Shown: positions 51,001 to 60,000 of the stretch, one piece after another
How the letters are laid out: each line of letters begins with the position of its first letter
How positions within the stretch are numbered: the first letter of the stretch is position 1
Program-made: the position numbers
Assembly: GCF_017348835.2 (NCBI RefSeq)
Contig: NZ_CP071375.1
Length of the DNA stretch: 64,000 nt
DNA from: Escherichia coli
GTDB taxonomy: Bacteria > Pseudomonadota > Gammaproteobacteria > Enterobacterales > Enterobacteriaceae
Reading direction: 5' to 3' (one strand)

Positions 51001-54000
51001 CCCAAATTCGTGGGAATTTATTTTACTAATTCAGATGATCAAATTTACTTTAAAAGGAGTGAAGGGATGTCTGATATAAACCATGCAGGTTCTGACCTTA
51101 TATTTGAACTGGAGGATCGCCCTCCCTTTCATCAGGCTCTCGTTGGTGCCATTACCCATCTGTTGGCAATTTTCGTTCCGATGGTAACCCCCGCGTTAAT
51201 CGTGGGTGCGGCCTTACAGCTTTCCGCTGAAACAACTGCCTATCTTGTTTCTATGGCGATGATCGCCTCTGGTATTGGTACCTGGTTACAAGTAAACCGC
51301 TACGGCATCGTCGGTTCTGGCCTACTCTCAATTCAGTCAGTCAATTTTTCATTTGTTACGGTCATGATTGCGCTGGGCAGCAGCATGAAAAGCGACGGTT
51401 TTCACGAAGAGTTAATCATGTCGTCGCTGCTTGGCGTCTCCTTCGTTGGCGCATTTCTGGTTGTCGGCTCTTCTTTTATCCTGCCCTATTTACGTCGGGT
51501 TATTACGCCTACTGTCAGCGGTATTGTGGTACTGATGATCGGCTTAAGCCTGATTAAAGTCGGCATTATCGATTTTGGTGGAGGATTTGCAGCCAAAAGC
51601 AGCGGTACGTTCGGCAATTACGAACATCTCGGCGTTGGTTTATTGGTTTTGATTGTGGTGATCGGCTTTAACTGCTGTCGCAGTCCGTTGCTACGCATGG
51701 GAGGGATCGCCATTGGGCTATGTGTCGGCTATATCGCATCGTTATGCCTGGGCATGGTGGATTTCAGCAGTATGCGCAATCTGCCGTTAATCACCATCCC
51801 GCATCCGTTCAAATACGGCTTTAGTTTTAGCTTCCATCAGTTCCTGGTGGTTGGCACGATTTATCTGCTTAGCGTGCTGGAAGCAGTCGGCGATATCACC
51901 GCCACGGCAATGGTTTCCCGCCGCCCCATTCAGGGGGAAGAGTATCAGTCCCGACTGAAAGGCGGCGTGCTGGCAGATGGTCTGGTTTCTGTTATCGCCT
52001 CCGCTGTTGGTTCATTACCATTAACCACGTTTGCGCAAAATAATGGGGTTATTCAGATGACTGGCGTCGCTTCACGTTATGTCGGGCGAACCATCGCGGT
52101 AATGCTGGTTATCCTCGGCTTATTTCCGATGATTGGCGGCTTCTTCACGACCATTCCCTCGGCAGTTCTGGGAGGCGCAATGACGTTGATGTTTTCCATG
52201 ATTGCCATCGCCGGGATTCGCATCATCATCACCAACGGATTAAAGCGGCGTGAAACACTTATTGTCGCCACTTCTTTAGGTTTAGGGCTTGGCGTCTCCT
52301 ACGATCCCGAAATTTTTAAAATATTGCCAGCCTCTATTTATGTATTAGTTGAAAACCCTATTTGTGCTGGCGGGTTAACTGCGATTTTATTAAATATTAT
52401 CCTCCCTGGTGGCTACCGACAGGAAAACGTTCTGCCTGGTATTACCTCAGCGGAAGAGATGGATTAACAGTAAAGGAGTCAATGATGTCAGGAGAACACA
52501 CGTTAAAAGCGGTACGAGGCAGTTTTATTGATGTCACCCGTACGGTCGATAACCCGGAAGAGATTGCCTCTGCGCTGCGGTTTATTGAGGATGGTTTATT
52601 ACTCATTAAACAGGGAAAAGTGGAATGGTTTGGCGAATGGGAAAACGGAAAGCATCAAATTCCTGACACCATTCGCGTGCGCGACTATCGCGGCAAACTG
52701 ATAGTACCGGGCTTTGTCGATACACATATCCATTATCCGCAAAGTGAAATGGTGGGGGCCTATGGTGAACAATTGCTGGAGTGGTTGAATAAACACACCT
52801 TCCCTACTGAACGTCGTTATGAGGATTTAGAGTACGCCCGCGAAATGTCGGCGTTCTTCATCAAGCAGCTTTTACGTAACGGAACCACCACGGCGCTGGT
52901 GTTTGGCACTGTTCATCCGCAATCCGTTGATGCGCTGTTTGAAGCCGCCAGTCATATCAATATGCGTATGATTGCCGGTAAGGTGATGATGGACCGTAAC
53001 GCACCGGATTATCTGCTCGACACTGCCGAAAGCAGCTATCACCAAAGCAAAGAACTGATTGAACGCTGGCACAAAAATGGTCGTCTGCTATATGCGATTA
53101 CGCCACGCTTCGCCCCTACTTCTTCTCCTGAACAGATGGCGATGGCGCAACGCCTGAAAGAGGAATATCCGGATACGTGGGTACATACCCATCTCTGTGA
53201 AAACAAAGATGAAATTGCCTGGGTGAAATCGCTTTATCCTGACCATGATGGTTATCTGGATGTTTACCATCAGTACGGCCTGACCGGTAAAAACTGTGTC
53301 TTTGCTCACTGCGTCCATCTCGAAGAAAAAGAGTGGGATCGTCTCAGCGAAACTAAATCCAGCATTGCTTTCTGTCCGACCTCCAACCTTTACCTCGGCA
53401 GCGGGTTATTCAACTTGAAAAAAGCATGGCAGAAGAAAGTTAAAGTGGGCATGGGAACGGATATCGGTGCCGGAACCACTTTCAACATGCTGCAAACGCT
53501 GAACGAAGCCTACAAAGTGTTGCAATTACAAGGCTATCGCCTCTCGGCATATGAAGCGTTTTACCTGGCCACGCTCGGCGGAGCGAAATCTCTGGGCCTT
53601 GACGATTTGATTGGCAACTTTTTACCTGGCAAAGAGGCTGATTTCGTGGTGATGGAACCCACCGCCACTCCGCTACAGCAGCTGCGCTATGACAACTCTG
53701 TTTCTTTAGTCGACAAATTGTTCGTGATGATGACGTTGGGCGATGACCGTTCGATCTACCGCACCTACGTTGATGGTCGTCTGGTGTACGAACGCAACTA
53801 ATAATAAAACTTTAACATCCTCGTGAGGACATCATTATGTCTGGAGACATCCTACAAACACCGGACGCACCAAAGCCACAGGGCGCGCTGGATAATTATT
53901 TTAAAATTACCGCTCGTGGCAGTACCGTTCGTCAGGAAGTACTGGCTGGCTTAACGACCTTTCTGGCCATGGTTTATTCCGTTATCGTCGTTCCGGGAAT

Positions 54001-57000: not shown

Positions 57001-60000
57001 TTTTCGGCACAATAAACACAGCGGTCACTCTCATAAGTCGCTTGTTGTGGATCCAGCCCGCAATAGATTTCGCCAAAGTGGGTTTTACGTTCACTCGCTG
57101 AAACTTTATCTGCGCCTTTACGCGAGTTAACGGGGAGCAACGCTGCACTGCGAGATGGCTGAGCGTCTGATGACGCTTTTCCTGCTGCCGTTTTGCGCTG
57201 GCGGGCCACCTTTATCTGCTGTAACCCTTTATCGTCCATCAGTCGTAACGCCTGTGTTGGGCAAACTTCAATACAGGCTTGCGTGCCGGAACTGCGCTGG
57301 TTACAAAGGTCGCATTTCTGCGCAATCGTATCGACCATCTCAACGACGCCAAAGGGGCAAGCGATTGCGCATCTTTTACAACCAATACATTTTTGCTCGT
57401 CCAGTTGTACGCTATCGGACTGGAAAGTCAGAGCATTAACTGGACAAGCCGTAACGCATGGGGCATTGTTGCAGTGATGGCAGGCCACCGGATTCGCAGC
57501 CTGGCCTTTCCCTACAACGTGGATACGCGGTCGAAAGTCACTGTGACTCAGCGGCCAGTTTTCTTGATTGTGTGCCACCGCACAGGCAATTTCACAAGCA
57601 TGACAGCCTATACATTCCGCAGCTTCAGCAGCGATAAACTTATTCATTTGCATCCCTTTCATTTAATGAGTTATGTCTTCTCAAATTTCGCGATGCAATA
57701 AACGGGCATATATTAGGTAGCATGACCGTTTTAATTATAATTTTGCGACTGAGTTCAAATTATTGCCCCTCAATCTATGCCGCTTTCATTATTTCAACAT
57801 TGCCGATCAAAAGAGCGCTATCCAGATAAAAACGATTAAATGCGAGAGTGCGACATGCCAGAATGATTAATGAAATATCAATATGAGAAAATTACAGATA
57901 ATTCCATTGTCAGGTTCTCTTGTCATTTTCGTGGTTTAAGCACGATTATGTGATTGCCTCCGCAATTCCTGTCTCTAACTCCCCTTCCTCGCAAAAACTG
58001 GCACTCCACGAGCATGTGTTTAGACAGTTTCATTAAAGTAAACGGTTGCTTTTTACTCTGGCGGGCGAAAGGAGAAACACTGATGAGCGCCATAGATTCC
58101 CAACTTCCCTCATCTTCTGGGCAAGACCGCCCAACTGATGAGGTTGACCGCATATTATCACCAGGAAAGCTGATCATACTCGGTCTGCAACACGTCCTTG
58201 TCATGTACGCAGGTGCAGTCGCTGTTCCTCTTATGATTGGTGACCGACTGGGCCTCTCAAAAGATGCTATTGCGATGCTCATTAGCTCGGATCTCTTTTG
58301 CTGCGGGATCGTCACATTATTGCAATGTATCGGTATCGGCCGCTTTATGGGGATCCGCCTGCCGGTGATTATGTCGGTGACCTTTGCTGCTGTAACACCA
58401 ATGATAGCCATTGGGATGAACCCGGATATCGGCCTGCTGGGGATATTTGGTGCCACTATCGCCGCGGGTTTTATCACCACATTATTAGCGCCACTTATCG
58501 GTCGCTTGATGCCTTTATTTCCGCCACTGGTTACCGGTGTGGTTATTACTTCTATCGGGCTTAGCATCATTCAGGTGGGTATTGACTGGGCCGCCGGAGG
58601 TAAAGGGAATCCGCAATATGGTAATCCCGTTTATTTAGGTATCTCCTTTGCCGTCTTAATTTTTATCTTGCTTATTACTCGCTATGCGAAAGGATTTATG
58701 TCCAACGTCGCCGTATTACTGGGGATTGTATTTGGCTTTTTACTTTCGTGGATGATGAATGAAGTCAATTTATCCGGGCTACATGATGCCTCGTGGTTTG
58801 CGATTGTCACCCCGATGTCGTTTGGTATGCCGATTTTCGATCCCGTTTCCATTCTGACCATGACAGCCGTGTTAATCATCGTGTTTATCGAGTCGATGGG
58901 GATGTTCCTGGCACTGGGTGAAATAGTCGGTCGTAAACTCTCTTCGCACGATATTATTCGCGGGCTGCGTGTCGATGGCGTAGGGACAATGATTGGTGGC
59001 ACGTTTAACAGCTTCCCCCACACGTCATTTTCTCAAAACGTTGGCCTGGTTAGCGTGACGCGCGTTCATAGCCGCTGGGTGTGTATTTCTTCGGGAATTA
59101 TATTAATCCTGTTTGGCATGGTGCCAAAAATGGCGGTGCTGGTAGCCTCCATTCCGCAATTTGTGCTGGGCGGCGCTGGGCTGGTGATGTTCGGCATGGT
59201 ACTGGCGACAGGGATTCGAATTCTGTCGCGCTGTAACTACACCACCAACCGTTACAACCTCTATATTGTGGCGATCAGTCTCGGCGTTGGCATGACTCCG
59301 ACGCTCTCTCACGATTTCTTTTCTAAGTTACCGGCCGTACTGCAACCGTTGCTGCATAGCGGCATTATGCTCGCAACCCTTAGCGCCGTTGTGCTGAATG
59401 TCTTCTTTAATGGCTACCAGCATCATGCTGACCTGGTGAAGGAATCCGTCTCTGATAAAGATTTAAAAGTCAGGACAGTACGTATGTGGCTTCTGATGCG
59501 CAAGCTGAAGAAAAATGAGCATGGAGAATAATATGAATTTTTTAATGCGCGCTATATTCAGTTTGCTGTTGCTTTTTACTCTCTCTATTCCTGTCATTTC
59601 TGACTGTGTTGCAATGGCCATTGAAAGTCGCTTCAAATATATGATGCTACTTTTTTAAATGGTTTTTACCTGTCGACATCCGCTCAAAACGGGCGGTTGT
59701 CGATAAACGCTCACTTGGTTAATCATTTCACTCTTCAATTATCTATAATGATGAGTGATCAGAATTACATGTGAGAAATTATGCAAACGGAACACGTCAT
59801 TTTATTGAATGCACAGGGAGTTCCCACGGGTACGCTGGAAAAGTATGCCGCACACACGGCAGACACCCGCTTACATCTCGCGTTCTCCAGTTGGCTGTTT
59901 AATGCCAAAGGACAATTATTAGTTACCCGCCGCGCACTGAGCAAAAAAGCATGGCCTGGCGTGTGGACTAACTCGGTTTGTGGGCACCCACAACTGGGAG

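What the first reader, a model, noticed from the sequence alone, without database searches (positions are those of the whole stretch)
51067..59531. Three NCS2 purine transporters bracket an Fe-S/flavoprotein pair (ygfS-ygfT)
xanQ-guaD, ghxQ and uacT flank the ferredoxin-like ygfS and the GltD-like Fe-S flavoprotein ygfT. With xdhABC and the hydroxylase cluster upstream, almost the whole core part of the window is devoted to purine uptake and oxidation or reduction. The arrangement suggests ygfST supplies or accepts electrons for anaerobic purine/urate conversion, but a defined reaction is not visible from sequence.
Basis: partly seen in the sequence, partly recalled or inferred. Interest (0 to 1): 0.4.

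Follow-up and report, generated by a model that had tools for sequence, protein, structure and literature searches.

The report
E. coli formate-linked urate electron module
This is the well-studied E. coli purine-catabolism island, where three nucleobase importers surround ygfT(uacF)-ygfS, an iron-sulfur flavoprotein pair already shown genetically to be needed for formate-dependent anaerobic uric acid breakdown, so the finding is correct but not new.

Summary
Window 51067-59531 runs exactly from the xanQ start to the uacT stop of an E. coli chromosome and holds six intact genes: xanQ-guaD-ghxQ (+), ygfT-ygfS (-) and uacT (+). All three permeases hit Pfam Xan_ur_permease. YgfS is a HydN/HycB-type ferredoxin with four [4Fe-4S] motifs. 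YgfT has the same module fused to a GltD/NfnB-like 2x[4Fe-4S]-FAD-NAD(P)H module.

The interpretation, that ygfST carries electrons for anaerobic urate conversion, is supported but already published. Citing papers report that aegA/ygfT, formate and formate dehydrogenase H are required for urate degradation (Iwadate & Kato 2019). ygfT is induced by urate and bound by PurR. The neighbouring cluster encodes the reductive urate pathway (XdhD-YgfM, YgfK and others).

Added here: in other Enterobacterales ygfT-ygfS always lies in the uricolytic cluster. In four of nine loci outside the closely related Escherichia/Citrobacter, in two different arrangements, an fdhF homologue is adjacent. The closest solved relative of YgfS and of the YgfT N-terminus is HycB, the FdhF-docking subunit.

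Most likely mechanism: FdhF -> YgfS/YgfT Fe-S chain -> FAD -> NAD(P)+, or directly to the pathway reductases. The exact reaction is still undefined. Novelty: already known. Interest: low.

The parts
51067..52467 (+). xanQ, xanthine/H+ symporter (NCS2, COG2233 branch)
   Evidence: RefSeq annotation. Intact 466-aa ORF. PF00860 E 1.8e-110; TIGR00801 455 bits.
52485..53801 (+). guaD, guanine deaminase (guanine -> xanthine)
   Evidence: Annotation. NF006679 739 bits and TIGR02967 634 bits. Amidohydro_1.
53837..55204 (+). ghxQ (ygfQ), guanine/hypoxanthine transporter (NCS2, COG2252/AzgA-like branch)
   Evidence: Annotation. PF00860 E 1.3e-80. No NCBIfam NCS2 model reached. Placed in COG2252.
55210..55233 (.). 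GC-rich hairpin between the convergent ghxQ and ygfS genes; terminator-like on the + strand (T-run follows)
   Evidence: 9-bp stem, 7 GC pairs. Sequence read.
55240..55728 (-). ygfS, 162-aa HydN/HycB-type ferredoxin with four CxxCxxCxxxC-type motifs (4 x [4Fe-4S])
   Evidence: All 16 Cys are invariant in 11 orthologues. Best solved relative is HycB of E. coli FHL, 7z0s_B, E 2.5e-31. 46% identical to the YgfT N-terminus.
57168..57647 (-). ygfT (uacF) N-terminal domain, residues 1-~160: second HydN/HycB-like 4 x [4Fe-4S] module
   Evidence: Cys motifs. HydN model hit on residues 1-157. HycB 7z0s_B E 1.4e-30. Cys invariant in 32 homologues.
55743..57137 (-). ygfT (uacF) GltD/NfnB-like domain, residues 171-635: 2 x [4Fe-4S] (Fer4_20), FAD site GAGPAG, NAD(P)H site GGGDTTMD...AYRRD..MPGS
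   Evidence: Aligns end to end with the NADPH-GltS beta subunit 6s6s_G, E 1e-108. AF2 model matches NfnI-L and GltS-beta at TM 0.85-0.87.
55728..57647 (-). ygfT/uacF whole gene (639 aa), first gene of the ygfT-ygfS operon; its stop overlaps the ygfS start by one base
   Evidence: NF009451 equivalog, 1504.6 bits.
57355..57370 (+). PurR box GGGCAAGCGATTGCGC reported by ChIP-chip for ygfT-ygfS (lies inside the ygfT coding region)
   Evidence: paper; exact match; 0.01 expected by chance.
57694..57710 (-). Weak sigma-54 site TATGCCCGTTTATTGCA about 36 nt upstream of ygfT. The -12 TTGCA is conserved in position in 11 of 12 other Enterobacterales loci (not Mixta); the -24 GG is degenerate
   Evidence: ChIP-seq table. 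Sequence. Cross-species scan.
57999..58014 (+). Sigma-54-like TGGCAC-N5-GAGCA 69 nt upstream of uacT. Conserved in Escherichia, Citrobacter and Klebsiella, with a better copy upstream of the Salmonella diarizonae permease
   Evidence: Not reported as sigma-54-bound, so function is unproven.
58083..59531 (+). uacT (ygfU), urate/H+ symporter (NCS2, COG2233 branch), divergent from ygfT
   Evidence: Annotation. PF00860 E 1.3e-123. Literature.
42776..50902 (+). Functional partners outside the finding: ygfK-ssnA-ygfM-xdhD (yanthine reductase, ring-opening amidohydrolase, FAD and Mo subunits of the urate dehydroxylase)
   Evidence: Biochemistry.
30723..32501 (-). ygeV, sigma-54 enhancer-binding regulator implicated with ygfT in urate degradation
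   Evidence: Cited role.

Best explanation
The segment is the transport and electron-input end of the E. coli purine/urate catabolic island. XanQ, GhxQ and UacT import xanthine, guanine/hypoxanthine and urate, and GuaD converts guanine to xanthine. ygfT(uacF)-ygfS is a two-gene operon encoding an Fe-S flavoprotein electron-transfer module. It couples formate oxidation by the unlinked selenoenzyme FdhF (formate dehydrogenase H) to the four-electron reductive urate pathway encoded next door (XdhD-YgfM: urate -> 2,8-dioxopurine; YgfK: dearomatisation).

Proposed path: formate -> FdhF -> HycB-like four-cluster ferredoxin YgfS and/or the equivalent N-terminal domain of YgfT -> two [4Fe-4S] clusters of the GltD-like domain -> FAD -> NAD(P)+. 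The NAD(P)H made is consumed by XdhD-YgfM and YgfK.

Shown: gene content, cofactor motifs, homology, conserved synteny including fdhF, and (from the literature) the genetic requirement, urate induction and PurR binding.

Inferred: the physical FdhF-YgfS-YgfT complex, the direction of electron flow, and NAD(P)+ as the acceptor.
For: Literature. aegA/ygfT, formate and FDH-H are required for anaerobic urate degradation (cited). ygfT is strongly induced by urate. PurR binds at ygfT-ygfS. There is a weak sigma-54 site upstream of ygfT, and sigma-54 sites at xdhA, ygeW and ygfK. [quoted passage not shown]

Cofactor motifs. YgfS has 16 invariant Cys, enough for 4 clusters. YgfT has 24 invariant Fe-S Cys, a GAGPAG FAD motif and a GGGDTxMD...YRRD..MPGS NADPH-type motif identical in pattern to the NADPH-GltS beta subunit.

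Homology. The closest solved relative of YgfS and of the YgfT N-terminus is HycB, the subunit that docks FdhF in formate hydrogenlyase. The GltD-like domain matches NADPH-binding GltS-beta and NfnB at TM 0.85-0.87. YgfT has no substrate-binding (FMN/TIM-barrel or Mo) domain, so it is unlikely to act on urate itself.

Synteny. ygfT-ygfS sits in the uricolytic cluster in Klebsiella, Salmonella diarizonae, Erwinia, Pantoea, Mixta, Serratia, Buttiauxella, Citrobacter and Escherichia. An fdhF homologue is adjacent in 4 of the 9 loci outside the closely related Escherichia/Citrobacter, in two different arrangements. In Erwinia and Pantoea the order is ygfT-ygfS-fdhF with 15-nt or overlapping junctions and a Cys-type FdhF. 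In K. aerogenes and S. diarizonae a Sec-type fdhF, 92-93% identical to E. coli FdhF, lies beside the permease.

Partner network. In two-hybrid assays the paralogue AegA binds HydN, YsaA and HycB, and these bind FdhF.
Against: No biochemical assay of YgfT or YgfS exists in the papers I could read. The primary paper (Iwadate & Kato 2019) is not held, so its results are taken from citing papers.

AegA did not interact directly with FdhF in two-hybrid assays, and a ΔaegA mutant did not change FDH-H dye-linked activity.

The YgfT nucleotide motif looks NADPH-type, whereas XdhD-YgfM and YgfK were assayed with NADH.

ygfS is absent in Citrobacter sp. R56 and Arsenophonus, so it may be dispensable.

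fdhF is unlinked in E. coli and is not adjacent in 5 of the 9 loci outside Escherichia/Citrobacter.

The AF2 model has low confidence in the Fe-S regions (pLDDT 73.7 overall), so inter-domain cluster distances could not be checked.
Confidence: 0.55

Rival explanations
1. Direct wire. FdhF-derived low-potential electrons pass through the YgfS/YgfT Fe-S chain straight into the Fe-S clusters of XdhD (and/or YgfK) without free NAD(P)H. The FAD/NAD(P)H site of YgfT would be only an auxiliary entry or exit.
For: In Erwinia, Pantoea, Mixta, Serratia and Buttiauxella, ygfT-ygfS is divergently adjacent to the XdhD-like Mo/FAD gene and its Fer2 subunit.

From textbook potentials (my own knowledge), formate/CO2 at about -420 mV is a much better donor than NAD(P)H at -320 mV for a urate/oxopurine couple near -360 mV. 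That would explain why formate is needed.

The in vitro NADH-driven reactions used 10 uM enzyme for about 1 h, so NADH may not be the physiological donor.
Against: XdhD-YgfM and YgfK carry their own FAD/NAD(P)H modules and work with NADH. The YgfT NADPH and FAD motifs are invariant across the family, which argues that the nucleotide site is essential. No interaction data exist.
Confidence: 0.2
2. Reverse direction. YgfT-YgfS is an NAD(P)H-dependent Fe-S reductase, like GltS-beta or the DPD N-terminus. It takes electrons from NAD(P)H and hands them to a pathway enzyme. Formate would be needed only indirectly, for example for induction or for general redox balance.
For: GltS-beta and the DPD N-terminal module, the closest solved relatives, oxidise NADPH (my own knowledge of these enzymes; the homology is). 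The review lists this as one option.
Against: It does not explain the reported FDH-H requirement or the repeated physical linkage of fdhF to ygfT-ygfS. XdhD-YgfM and YgfK already have their own NAD(P)H entry modules.
Confidence: 0.1
3. Flavin-based electron bifurcation or confurcation. The NfnB-like FAD of YgfT would combine or split electrons between NADP(H), the FdhF-linked low-potential Fe-S chain and a second acceptor.
For: The closest structural matches include bifurcating NfnI, NfnABC and StnABC large subunits. In the last two a GltD-like module is fused to a formate-dehydrogenase-like domain. The option is raised in the review.
Against: No NfnA-like (FAD/[2Fe-2S]) or HydB-like partner gene is adjacent in any locus examined. 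GltS-beta, which is equally similar, does not bifurcate.
Confidence: 0.1
4. Chance adjacency. ygfT-ygfS belongs to hydrogen/formate or glutamate metabolism and merely sits among purine genes.
For: YgfT's C-terminal domain is about 59-60% identical to enterobacterial GltD (loci L012-L015). The paralogue aegA is not in a purine cluster in E. coli.
Against: Synteny with uricolytic genes is conserved across at least 9 genera. ygfT is induced by urate and bound by PurR, and a mutant phenotype is reported. No GltB-like large subunit is adjacent.
Confidence: 0.03

Closest known systems
AegA (E. coli b2468), paralogue named 'formate-dependent uric acid utilization protein AegA'
   Same: Same architecture: a HydN-like 4-cluster domain plus a GltD-like domain. 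55% identity over the full length. Reported to act redundantly with YgfT in formate-dependent urate degradation.
   Different: aegA is monocistronic next to narQ/nudK, outside the purine island, and has no ygfS-like partner gene. It is only modestly induced by urate.
HycB / HydN / YsaA ferredoxins that partner FdhF (formate hydrogenlyase small subunit, PDB 7z0s_B; HDCR HycB3/4, 7qv7)
   Same: YgfS and the YgfT N-terminus have the same four-cluster Cys pattern. They are 34-40% identical to HycB and HydN, which are the best solved-structure hits. Pinske 2018 places YgfS and YgfT in this paralogous group.
   Different: In YgfT the module is fused to a flavoprotein, and the locus encodes no hydrogenase. 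Contact between FdhF and YgfS or YgfT has not been shown.
GltD-like NADPH:Fe-S modules (GltS beta subunit 6s6s_G/2vdc_G; NfnB/NfnI-L 4ylf_B/5jca_L; DPD N-terminus 1h7w)
   Same: Two [4Fe-4S] motifs, the FAD and NADPH motifs and the overall fold all match (E 1e-108; TM 0.85-0.87).
   Different: There is no GltB, NfnA or FMN/pyrimidine-binding partner. Instead there is an N-terminal polyferredoxin and a separate ferredoxin subunit.
Nfn-ABC / StnABC large subunits (9bov_A, 9n5u_A, 8oh5_C)
   Same: These are precedents for a GltD-like NADP(H) port physically joined to a formate-dehydrogenase-like molybdopterin domain.
   Different: In those enzymes the two parts are fused in one roughly 1170-aa chain inside a bifurcating complex. 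Here FdhF is a separate enzyme and is unlinked in E. coli.
Reductive uric acid degradation cluster (XdhD-YgfM, YgfK, SsnA, HyuA, YgeY, YgeW, YqeA, YgeX; Li et al. 2025; Liu et al. 2022/23)
   Same: Same genomic island, same inducer, and the same sigma-54/YgeV and PurR regulatory context.
   Different: YgfT and YgfS are not part of the reconstituted enzymatic route and have no assigned reaction.

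Membership tests
NCS2/NAT nucleobase:cation symporters | Match to Pfam PF00860 (Xan_ur_permease) above the gathering score over the whole core | tested here: met
   XanQ 369.8 bits, GhxQ 271.5 bits, UacT 413 bits; cutoff 27.
NCS2/NAT nucleobase:cation symporters | Match to NCBIfam TIGR00801 'ncs2' (COG2233-type core) | tested here: met
   Met for XanQ (455 bits) and UacT (454 bits), cutoff 291.8. Not met for GhxQ, which matched no NCBIfam family. GhxQ belongs to the COG2252 branch.
NCS2/NAT nucleobase:cation symporters | Demonstrated proton-coupled transport of xanthine, guanine/hypoxanthine or urate | not testable with these tools
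   Taken from the annotation and literature.
HydN/HycB-type four-cluster ferredoxins | Four Cys motifs able to bind 4 x [4Fe-4S], conserved among orthologues | tested here: met
   YgfS has 16 Cys invariant in 11 orthologues. The YgfT N-terminus has 16 Cys invariant in 32 homologues.
HydN/HycB-type four-cluster ferredoxins | Sequence homology to HydN/HycB over the whole domain | tested here: met
   HydN model NF007658 reaches E 2.6e-39 (YgfS) and 4.4e-35 (YgfT 1-157), but both are below the equivalog cutoff of 260 bits, so they are paralogues rather than HydN itself. 34-40% identity. HycB 7z0s_B E 1e-30 to 1e-31.
HydN/HycB-type four-cluster ferredoxins | Physical interaction with FdhF | not testable with these tools
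   Only indirect evidence: fdhF is adjacent in 4 loci, and AegA binds HydN, YsaA and HycB.
GltD-like NAD(P)H:Fe-S flavoprotein module | Fer4_20 domain with two Cys clusters, plus Pyr_redox_2 with an FAD GxGxxG motif and a second dinucleotide motif | tested here: met
   PF14691 126 bits and PF07992 94 bits. TIGR01318 850 bits, cutoff 483. Motifs GAGPAG-317 and GGGDTTMD-458 + YRR. Invariant in 32 homologues.
GltD-like NAD(P)H:Fe-S flavoprotein module | Fold match to solved GltS-beta / NfnB | tested here: met
   Foldseek against 5jca_L and 6s6s_E: E 1e-41 to 1e-42, TM(target) 0.86-0.87. Model pLDDT is 73.7 overall and high in the Rossmann domains.
Glutamate synthase (GltBD) | Adjacent GltB-type large subunit | tested here: not met
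   The neighbours are ghxQ, ygfS and uacT. True GltBD loci (L012-L015) show the 1486-aa GltB immediately upstream.
YgfT/UacF equivalog (NCBIfam NF009451, 'formate-dependent uric acid utilization protein YgfT') | Full-length score above the curated equivalog cutoff | tested here: met
   1504.6 bits against a cutoff of 1154, covering 1-639 of 639.
Formate-dependent urate degradation system (AegA/YgfT + FdhF + formate) | Urate degradation phenotype dependent on ygfT/aegA, fdhF and formate | not testable with these tools
   Known only from citing papers. The primary paper is not held. fdhF lies outside the window.
NfnAB-type electron-bifurcating transhydrogenase | NfnA-like FAD/[2Fe-2S] small subunit encoded with the NfnB-like subunit | tested here: not met
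   No such gene is adjacent in the window or in 12 related loci.

The most novel reading that the evidence does not exclude
FdhF, YgfS and YgfT form a discrete soluble complex, which would be a further FdhF-containing enzyme of E. coli besides formate hydrogenlyase. In it the NfnB-like FAD of YgfT acts as a bifurcating or confurcating site. It would merge low-potential formate electrons (through about ten [4Fe-4S] clusters) with NADP(H) to drive the thermodynamically difficult urate -> 2,8-dioxopurine and dearomatisation steps directly. This would explain the formate dependence of anaerobic uricolysis in enterobacteria and the long-orphan AegA/HydN/YsaA network.
Probability: 0.12. Interest if true: 0.55.

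Novelty: already known. Interest (0 to 1): 0.18.

Why it matters
Gut bacterial uricolysis lowers host urate, and engineered E. coli Nissle strains that overexpress this cluster are being developed against hyperuricaemia. The electron-input step, meaning how formate feeds the four-electron reduction, is the one part of the E. coli pathway with no assigned biochemistry. Knowing whether FdhF-YgfS-YgfT makes NAD(P)H or wires directly into XdhD or YgfK would show which genes must be co-expressed for maximal flux. It would also give a function to the orphan ferredoxin-flavoprotein family AegA/YgfT/YgfS. As a scan finding, however, it re-describes an annotated and published locus.

Tried and rejected
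1. Primary paper. I tried to read Iwadate & Kato 2019 by PMC id and by PubMed id. It is not held, so its content is cited second-hand.

2. Genome-contig scan with YgfT. It returned only 12 loci. Four of them (L012-L015) are genuine gltBD loci matching only the C-terminal domain and were discarded. Two more (L011, L017) did not yield a full-length YgfT. A broad statistical co-occurrence test was therefore not possible, and I sampled 10 further loci by exact-protein look-up instead.

3. Exhaustive HMMER search of 1.84 billion representatives. Only one other 50%-identity representative (P0121) among the best 150 has the full HydN-like + GltD-like architecture. The family is therefore narrow, seen here mainly in Enterobacterales, and a test in distant phyla was not possible. 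The other long hits (P0122, P0138, P0207, P0224) have different N-terminal domains.

4. AlphaFold2 model of YgfT. The Fe-S regions have low confidence, so cluster-to-cluster distances and docking of the ferredoxin domain could not be judged. Foldseek only re-confirmed the GltD/NfnB fold.

5. Window-wide sigma-54 pattern search. It gave 40 hits against 37.6 expected, so the pattern alone is not evidence. Only positional conservation and the published ChIP data carry weight.

6. Rfam scan of the whole window. Only tRNA-Gly was found, with no riboswitch or sRNA in the finding.

7. Repeat scan. The direct repeats spaced about 1.93 kb apart simply reflect the ygfS / ygfT-5' paralogy. No mobile-element signature was found in the finding.

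8. YgfT acting on urate directly. Rejected as the main reading because YgfT has no substrate-binding domain and XdhD-YgfM has been shown to perform that step.

Full report
**Identity of the window.** The 8.5-kb finding is 100% identical to E. coli strain PE164. It is present at >=80% coverage in 5159 of 5426 complete E. coli genomes. The whole window aligns at 99.99% to that chromosome. RefSeq annotation, re-checked here by translating every ORF in window coordinates, gives this layout:
- remnants of the ETT2 type III secretion island at about 1-23000;
- xdhABC at 27021-30683;
- ygeV at 30723-32501 (-);
- ygeW-ygeX-ygeY-hyuA-yqeA at 32981-39109;
- yqeB and yqeC (-), then mocA;
- ygfK-ssnA-ygfM-xdhD at 42776-50902;
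- the finding itself;
- idi, lysS and prfB.

**Observation.** The finding's coordinates are exactly the xanQ start (51067) and the uacT stop (59531). The six genes are intact: xanQ 51067-52467 (+), guaD 52485-53801 (+), ghxQ 53837-55204 (+), ygfS 55240-55728 (-), ygfT 55728-57647 (-) and uacT 58083-59531 (+).

All three permeases match Pfam Xan_ur_permease with E-values of 1e-80 to 1e-123. XanQ and UacT also reach the NCBIfam NCS2 model. GhxQ does not. This fits its placement in the COG2252/AzgA-like branch of the ten E. coli NCS2 paralogues. With ten paralogues in 4.6 Mb, three in 8.5 kb is far beyond chance.

YgfS (162 aa) has four Cys motifs for [4Fe-4S] clusters. YgfT (639 aa) has the same four motifs in residues 1-~130. 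These are followed by a GltD-like region (residues 171-635) with two more cluster motifs, an FAD motif (GAGPAG) and a second dinucleotide motif (GGGDTTMD...AYRRD..MPGS). The addition is that YgfT also carries its own YgfS-like ferredoxin domain, 46% identical to YgfS; DNA-level repeats about 1.93 kb apart reflect this paralogy. The ygfT stop and ygfS start overlap by one base (TGATG), so the operon order is ygfT-ygfS. A GC-rich hairpin at 55210-55233 separates the convergent ghxQ and ygfS genes.

**What is already known.** NCBI's own family name for YgfT is 'formate-dependent uric acid utilization protein' (equivalog score 1504.6, cutoff 1154). I could not obtain the primary paper (Iwadate & Kato 2019). 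Four papers that cite it agree on its content:
- E. coli consumes urate anaerobically by a mechanism that requires formate and involves aegA, ygfT and ygeV.
- YgfT has been renamed UacF.

Liu et al. measured strong induction of ygfT and ygfK by urate. PurR ChIP-chip lists ygfT-ygfS and ygfK-ssnA among the bound regions, and the reported 16-mer is present at window 57355-57370. Sigma-54 ChIP-seq found sites upstream of xdhA, ygeW and ygfK, and a weak one upstream of ygfT. That sequence is at window 57694-57710 on the minus strand.

Li et al. 2025 reconstituted the neighbouring cluster as a reductive pathway. XdhD-YgfM reduces urate to 2,8-dioxopurine ('yanthine'). YgfK dearomatises it. SsnA, HyuA, YgeY, YgeW/YqeA and YgeX take it to pyruvate and ammonia. 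[quoted passage not shown] That paper leaves AegA and UacF as 'uncharacterized oxidoreductases'.

**New comparative evidence.** I looked at the context of YgfT homologues in other genera. Twelve loci carried a full-length homologue:
- two Escherichia species;
- two Citrobacter;
- K. aerogenes and Salmonella diarizonae;
- Erwinia oleae and a Pantoea;
- Mixta and Serratia fonticola;
- Buttiauxella and Arsenophonus.

In all twelve the gene is next to an NCS2 permease or a XdhD-like molybdoenzyme gene. In all but Arsenophonus, other uricolytic genes also lie within 10 kb (xdhD/ygfM/ssnA, ssnA/ygfK or ygeW/X/Y). ygfS follows ygfT directly in 10 of 12; it is lost in Citrobacter sp. R56 and Arsenophonus. 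Its 16 Cys are invariant, as are all 24 Fe-S Cys and both nucleotide motifs of YgfT across 32 homologues including AegA.

The informative result is formate dehydrogenase. In Erwinia and Pantoea the operon is ygfT-ygfS-fdhF, with a 716-aa FdhF homologue that has Cys at the active-site position (CCARVCH) and junctions of 15 nt or overlapping. In K. aerogenes and S. diarizonae, a selenocysteine-type fdhF lies beside the permease gene that diverges from ygfT. It has an in-frame TGA at CCARV*HGPS and is 92-93% identical to E. coli FdhF. Two different arrangements imply at least two independent linkage events. This is genomic support for the genetic FdhF requirement, and I did not see it stated in the papers I could read.

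**Structural relatives.** By sequence, the best solved relative of both YgfS and the YgfT N-terminus is HycB of the E. coli formate hydrogenlyase (7z0s_B, E about 1e-31). Next come the HycB3/HycB4 subunits of hydrogen-dependent CO2 reductase. HycB is the subunit that contacts FdhF, which is only loosely bound in that complex. Others have suggested that FdhF 'moonlights' in other pathways.

The C-terminal domain aligns end to end with the NADPH-glutamate synthase beta subunit (E 1e-108), including the YRRD..MPGS stretch. An AlphaFold2 model (pLDDT 73.7, low in the Fe-S loops) superposes on NfnI-L and GltS-beta with TM 0.85-0.87. Other hits are the large subunits of NfnABC and StnABC, where a GltD-like module is fused to a formate-dehydrogenase-like domain. 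These are a precedent for pairing the two module types. YgfT has no Mo, FMN or other substrate domain.

**Mechanism.** The best-supported reading is that YgfT-YgfS is the electron-input module of the reductive urate pathway. FdhF oxidises formate. Electrons enter the HycB-like clusters of YgfS and/or the YgfT N-terminus. They then pass the two GltD-type clusters to FAD and reduce NAD(P)+. The reduced nucleotide is used by XdhD-YgfM and YgfK.

By analogy with AegA, YgfS may act as the adaptor between FdhF and YgfT. AegA bound HydN, YsaA and HycB, but not FdhF, in two-hybrid assays, whereas HydN, YsaA and HycB bound FdhF.

Status of each part of the claim:
- Shown here: gene content, motifs, homology and synteny.
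- Taken from the literature: phenotype, induction and PurR/sigma-54 binding.
- Inferred: the complex itself, the direction of electron flow and the acceptor.

Points against:
- There is no enzymology for YgfT or YgfS.
- YgfT's motif is NADPH-type, while the pathway enzymes were assayed with NADH.
- ygfS is lost in two lineages.
- fdhF is not linked in E. coli or in five of the nine loci outside Escherichia/Citrobacter.

**Rivals.**
- (a) A direct Fe-S wire from FdhF through YgfST into XdhD or YgfK. It is attractive because ygfTS is divergently paired with the XdhD-like gene in five genera. From textbook potentials (my own knowledge), formate is also a better reductant than NAD(P)H for a urate/oxopurine couple.
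- (b) The reverse direction, with NAD(P)H as the donor. This does not explain the FdhF requirement or linkage.
- (c) NfnB-like electron bifurcation. It was raised in a review, but no NfnA-like partner gene is present in any locus.
- (d) Chance adjacency. The phenotype, induction and synteny contradict it.

**Distribution.** An exhaustive search of 1.84 billion representative proteins found only one other 50%-identity representative with the full HydN-like + GltD-like architecture among the best 150 hits. That representative also has a ygfS-like gene downstream. The fusion family is therefore narrow; the named homologues found are all Enterobacterales. The formate/urate link could not be tested in distant phyla.

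**Verdict.** The remaining open point is the exact reaction of YgfT/YgfS. This work sharpens it (fdhF linkage, HycB homology, invariant NADPH-type site) but does not resolve it. Novelty: already known. Interest is low as a discovery. There is a modest, directly testable biochemical question of practical relevance to uricolytic probiotics.

Noticed in passing
window 57999-58014 (+), upstream of uacT: A sigma-54-like TGGCAC-N5-GAGCA lies 69 nt before the uacT ATG. It is conserved in position in Escherichia spp., Citrobacter and K. aerogenes (TGGCAC-TCCCT-AAGCA). A near-consensus copy (TGGCAC-AGCTT-ATGCA) precedes the permease in S. diarizonae. It is not listed as sigma-54-bound in the ChIP-seq paper, and the pattern alone is not enriched in the window.
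   Followed up: partly
window 57694-57710 (-), upstream of ygfT; loci L003-L021: The -12 element TTGCA sits 49-63 nt upstream of the ygfT ATG in 11 of 12 other Enterobacterales loci (not Mixta). The -24 element has only one G (xGCxC) instead of GG. This matches the weak ChIP-seq site. It could instead be a sigma-70 -35 box (TTGCAT).
   Followed up: partly
window 57744-57759: A CRP-like palindrome TGCGA-N6-TCAAA lies about 100 nt upstream of ygfT. It is the best-conserved block of the ygfT-uacT intergenic alignment across Escherichia, Citrobacter, Klebsiella and Salmonella.
   Followed up: no
L003 1881-5596; L005 5950-9642; L018, L019, L021: In Klebsiella, Erwinia, Pantoea, Mixta and Serratia the XdhD-like enzyme is a single chain of about 990-1073 aa (about 1072 in four of the five) that fuses the Mo-binding and FAD-binding domains, with a separate 152-153-aa Fer2 subunit. 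This is a different domain split from E. coli XdhD (Fer2+Mo) + YgfM (FAD). It is only 25-28% identical to E. coli XdhD, so it may not be orthologous.
   Followed up: no
L008 (Citrobacter sp. R56) 11908-11972; L004 (Arsenophonus): ygfS is absent. In Citrobacter sp. R56 only 64 bp separate ygfT from ghxQ. Arsenophonus keeps just a divergent NCS2 permease and ygfT among unrelated genes. This suggests YgfS is dispensable, or that permease + YgfT is a minimal unit.
   Followed up: no
window ~1-23000 (- strand relative to the record): A degraded ETT2 type III secretion island: sctC is split by an IS1 insertion (IS1 at about 21417-22114), sctN and the YscQ-family gene are frameshifted, and a further T3SS gene is truncated. 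It is bounded by a tRNA-Gly at 25698-25768.
   Followed up: no
window 61899-62997 (-): prfB with its programmed +1 frameshift; a straight translation gives 25 stops, as expected for the two-piece CDS.
   Followed up: no
window 59533-59726: Two tiny annotated ORFs right after uacT: yqfG (41 aa, +) and yqfH (23 aa, -). They overlap convergently by 4 nt.
   Followed up: no
window 32502-32977 (ygeV-ygeW intergenic): The window has a single 1-bp indel relative to strain PE164. By offset arithmetic it falls in this regulatory intergenic region, which holds the sigma-54 promoter of ygeW (32871-32886, TGGCACACTTATTGTT).
   Followed up: no
window 23605-23784 (-): A 59-aa GhoT/OrtT-family toxin gene lies between the ETT2 remnant and a glycoside hydrolase 15 gene.
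   Followed up: no
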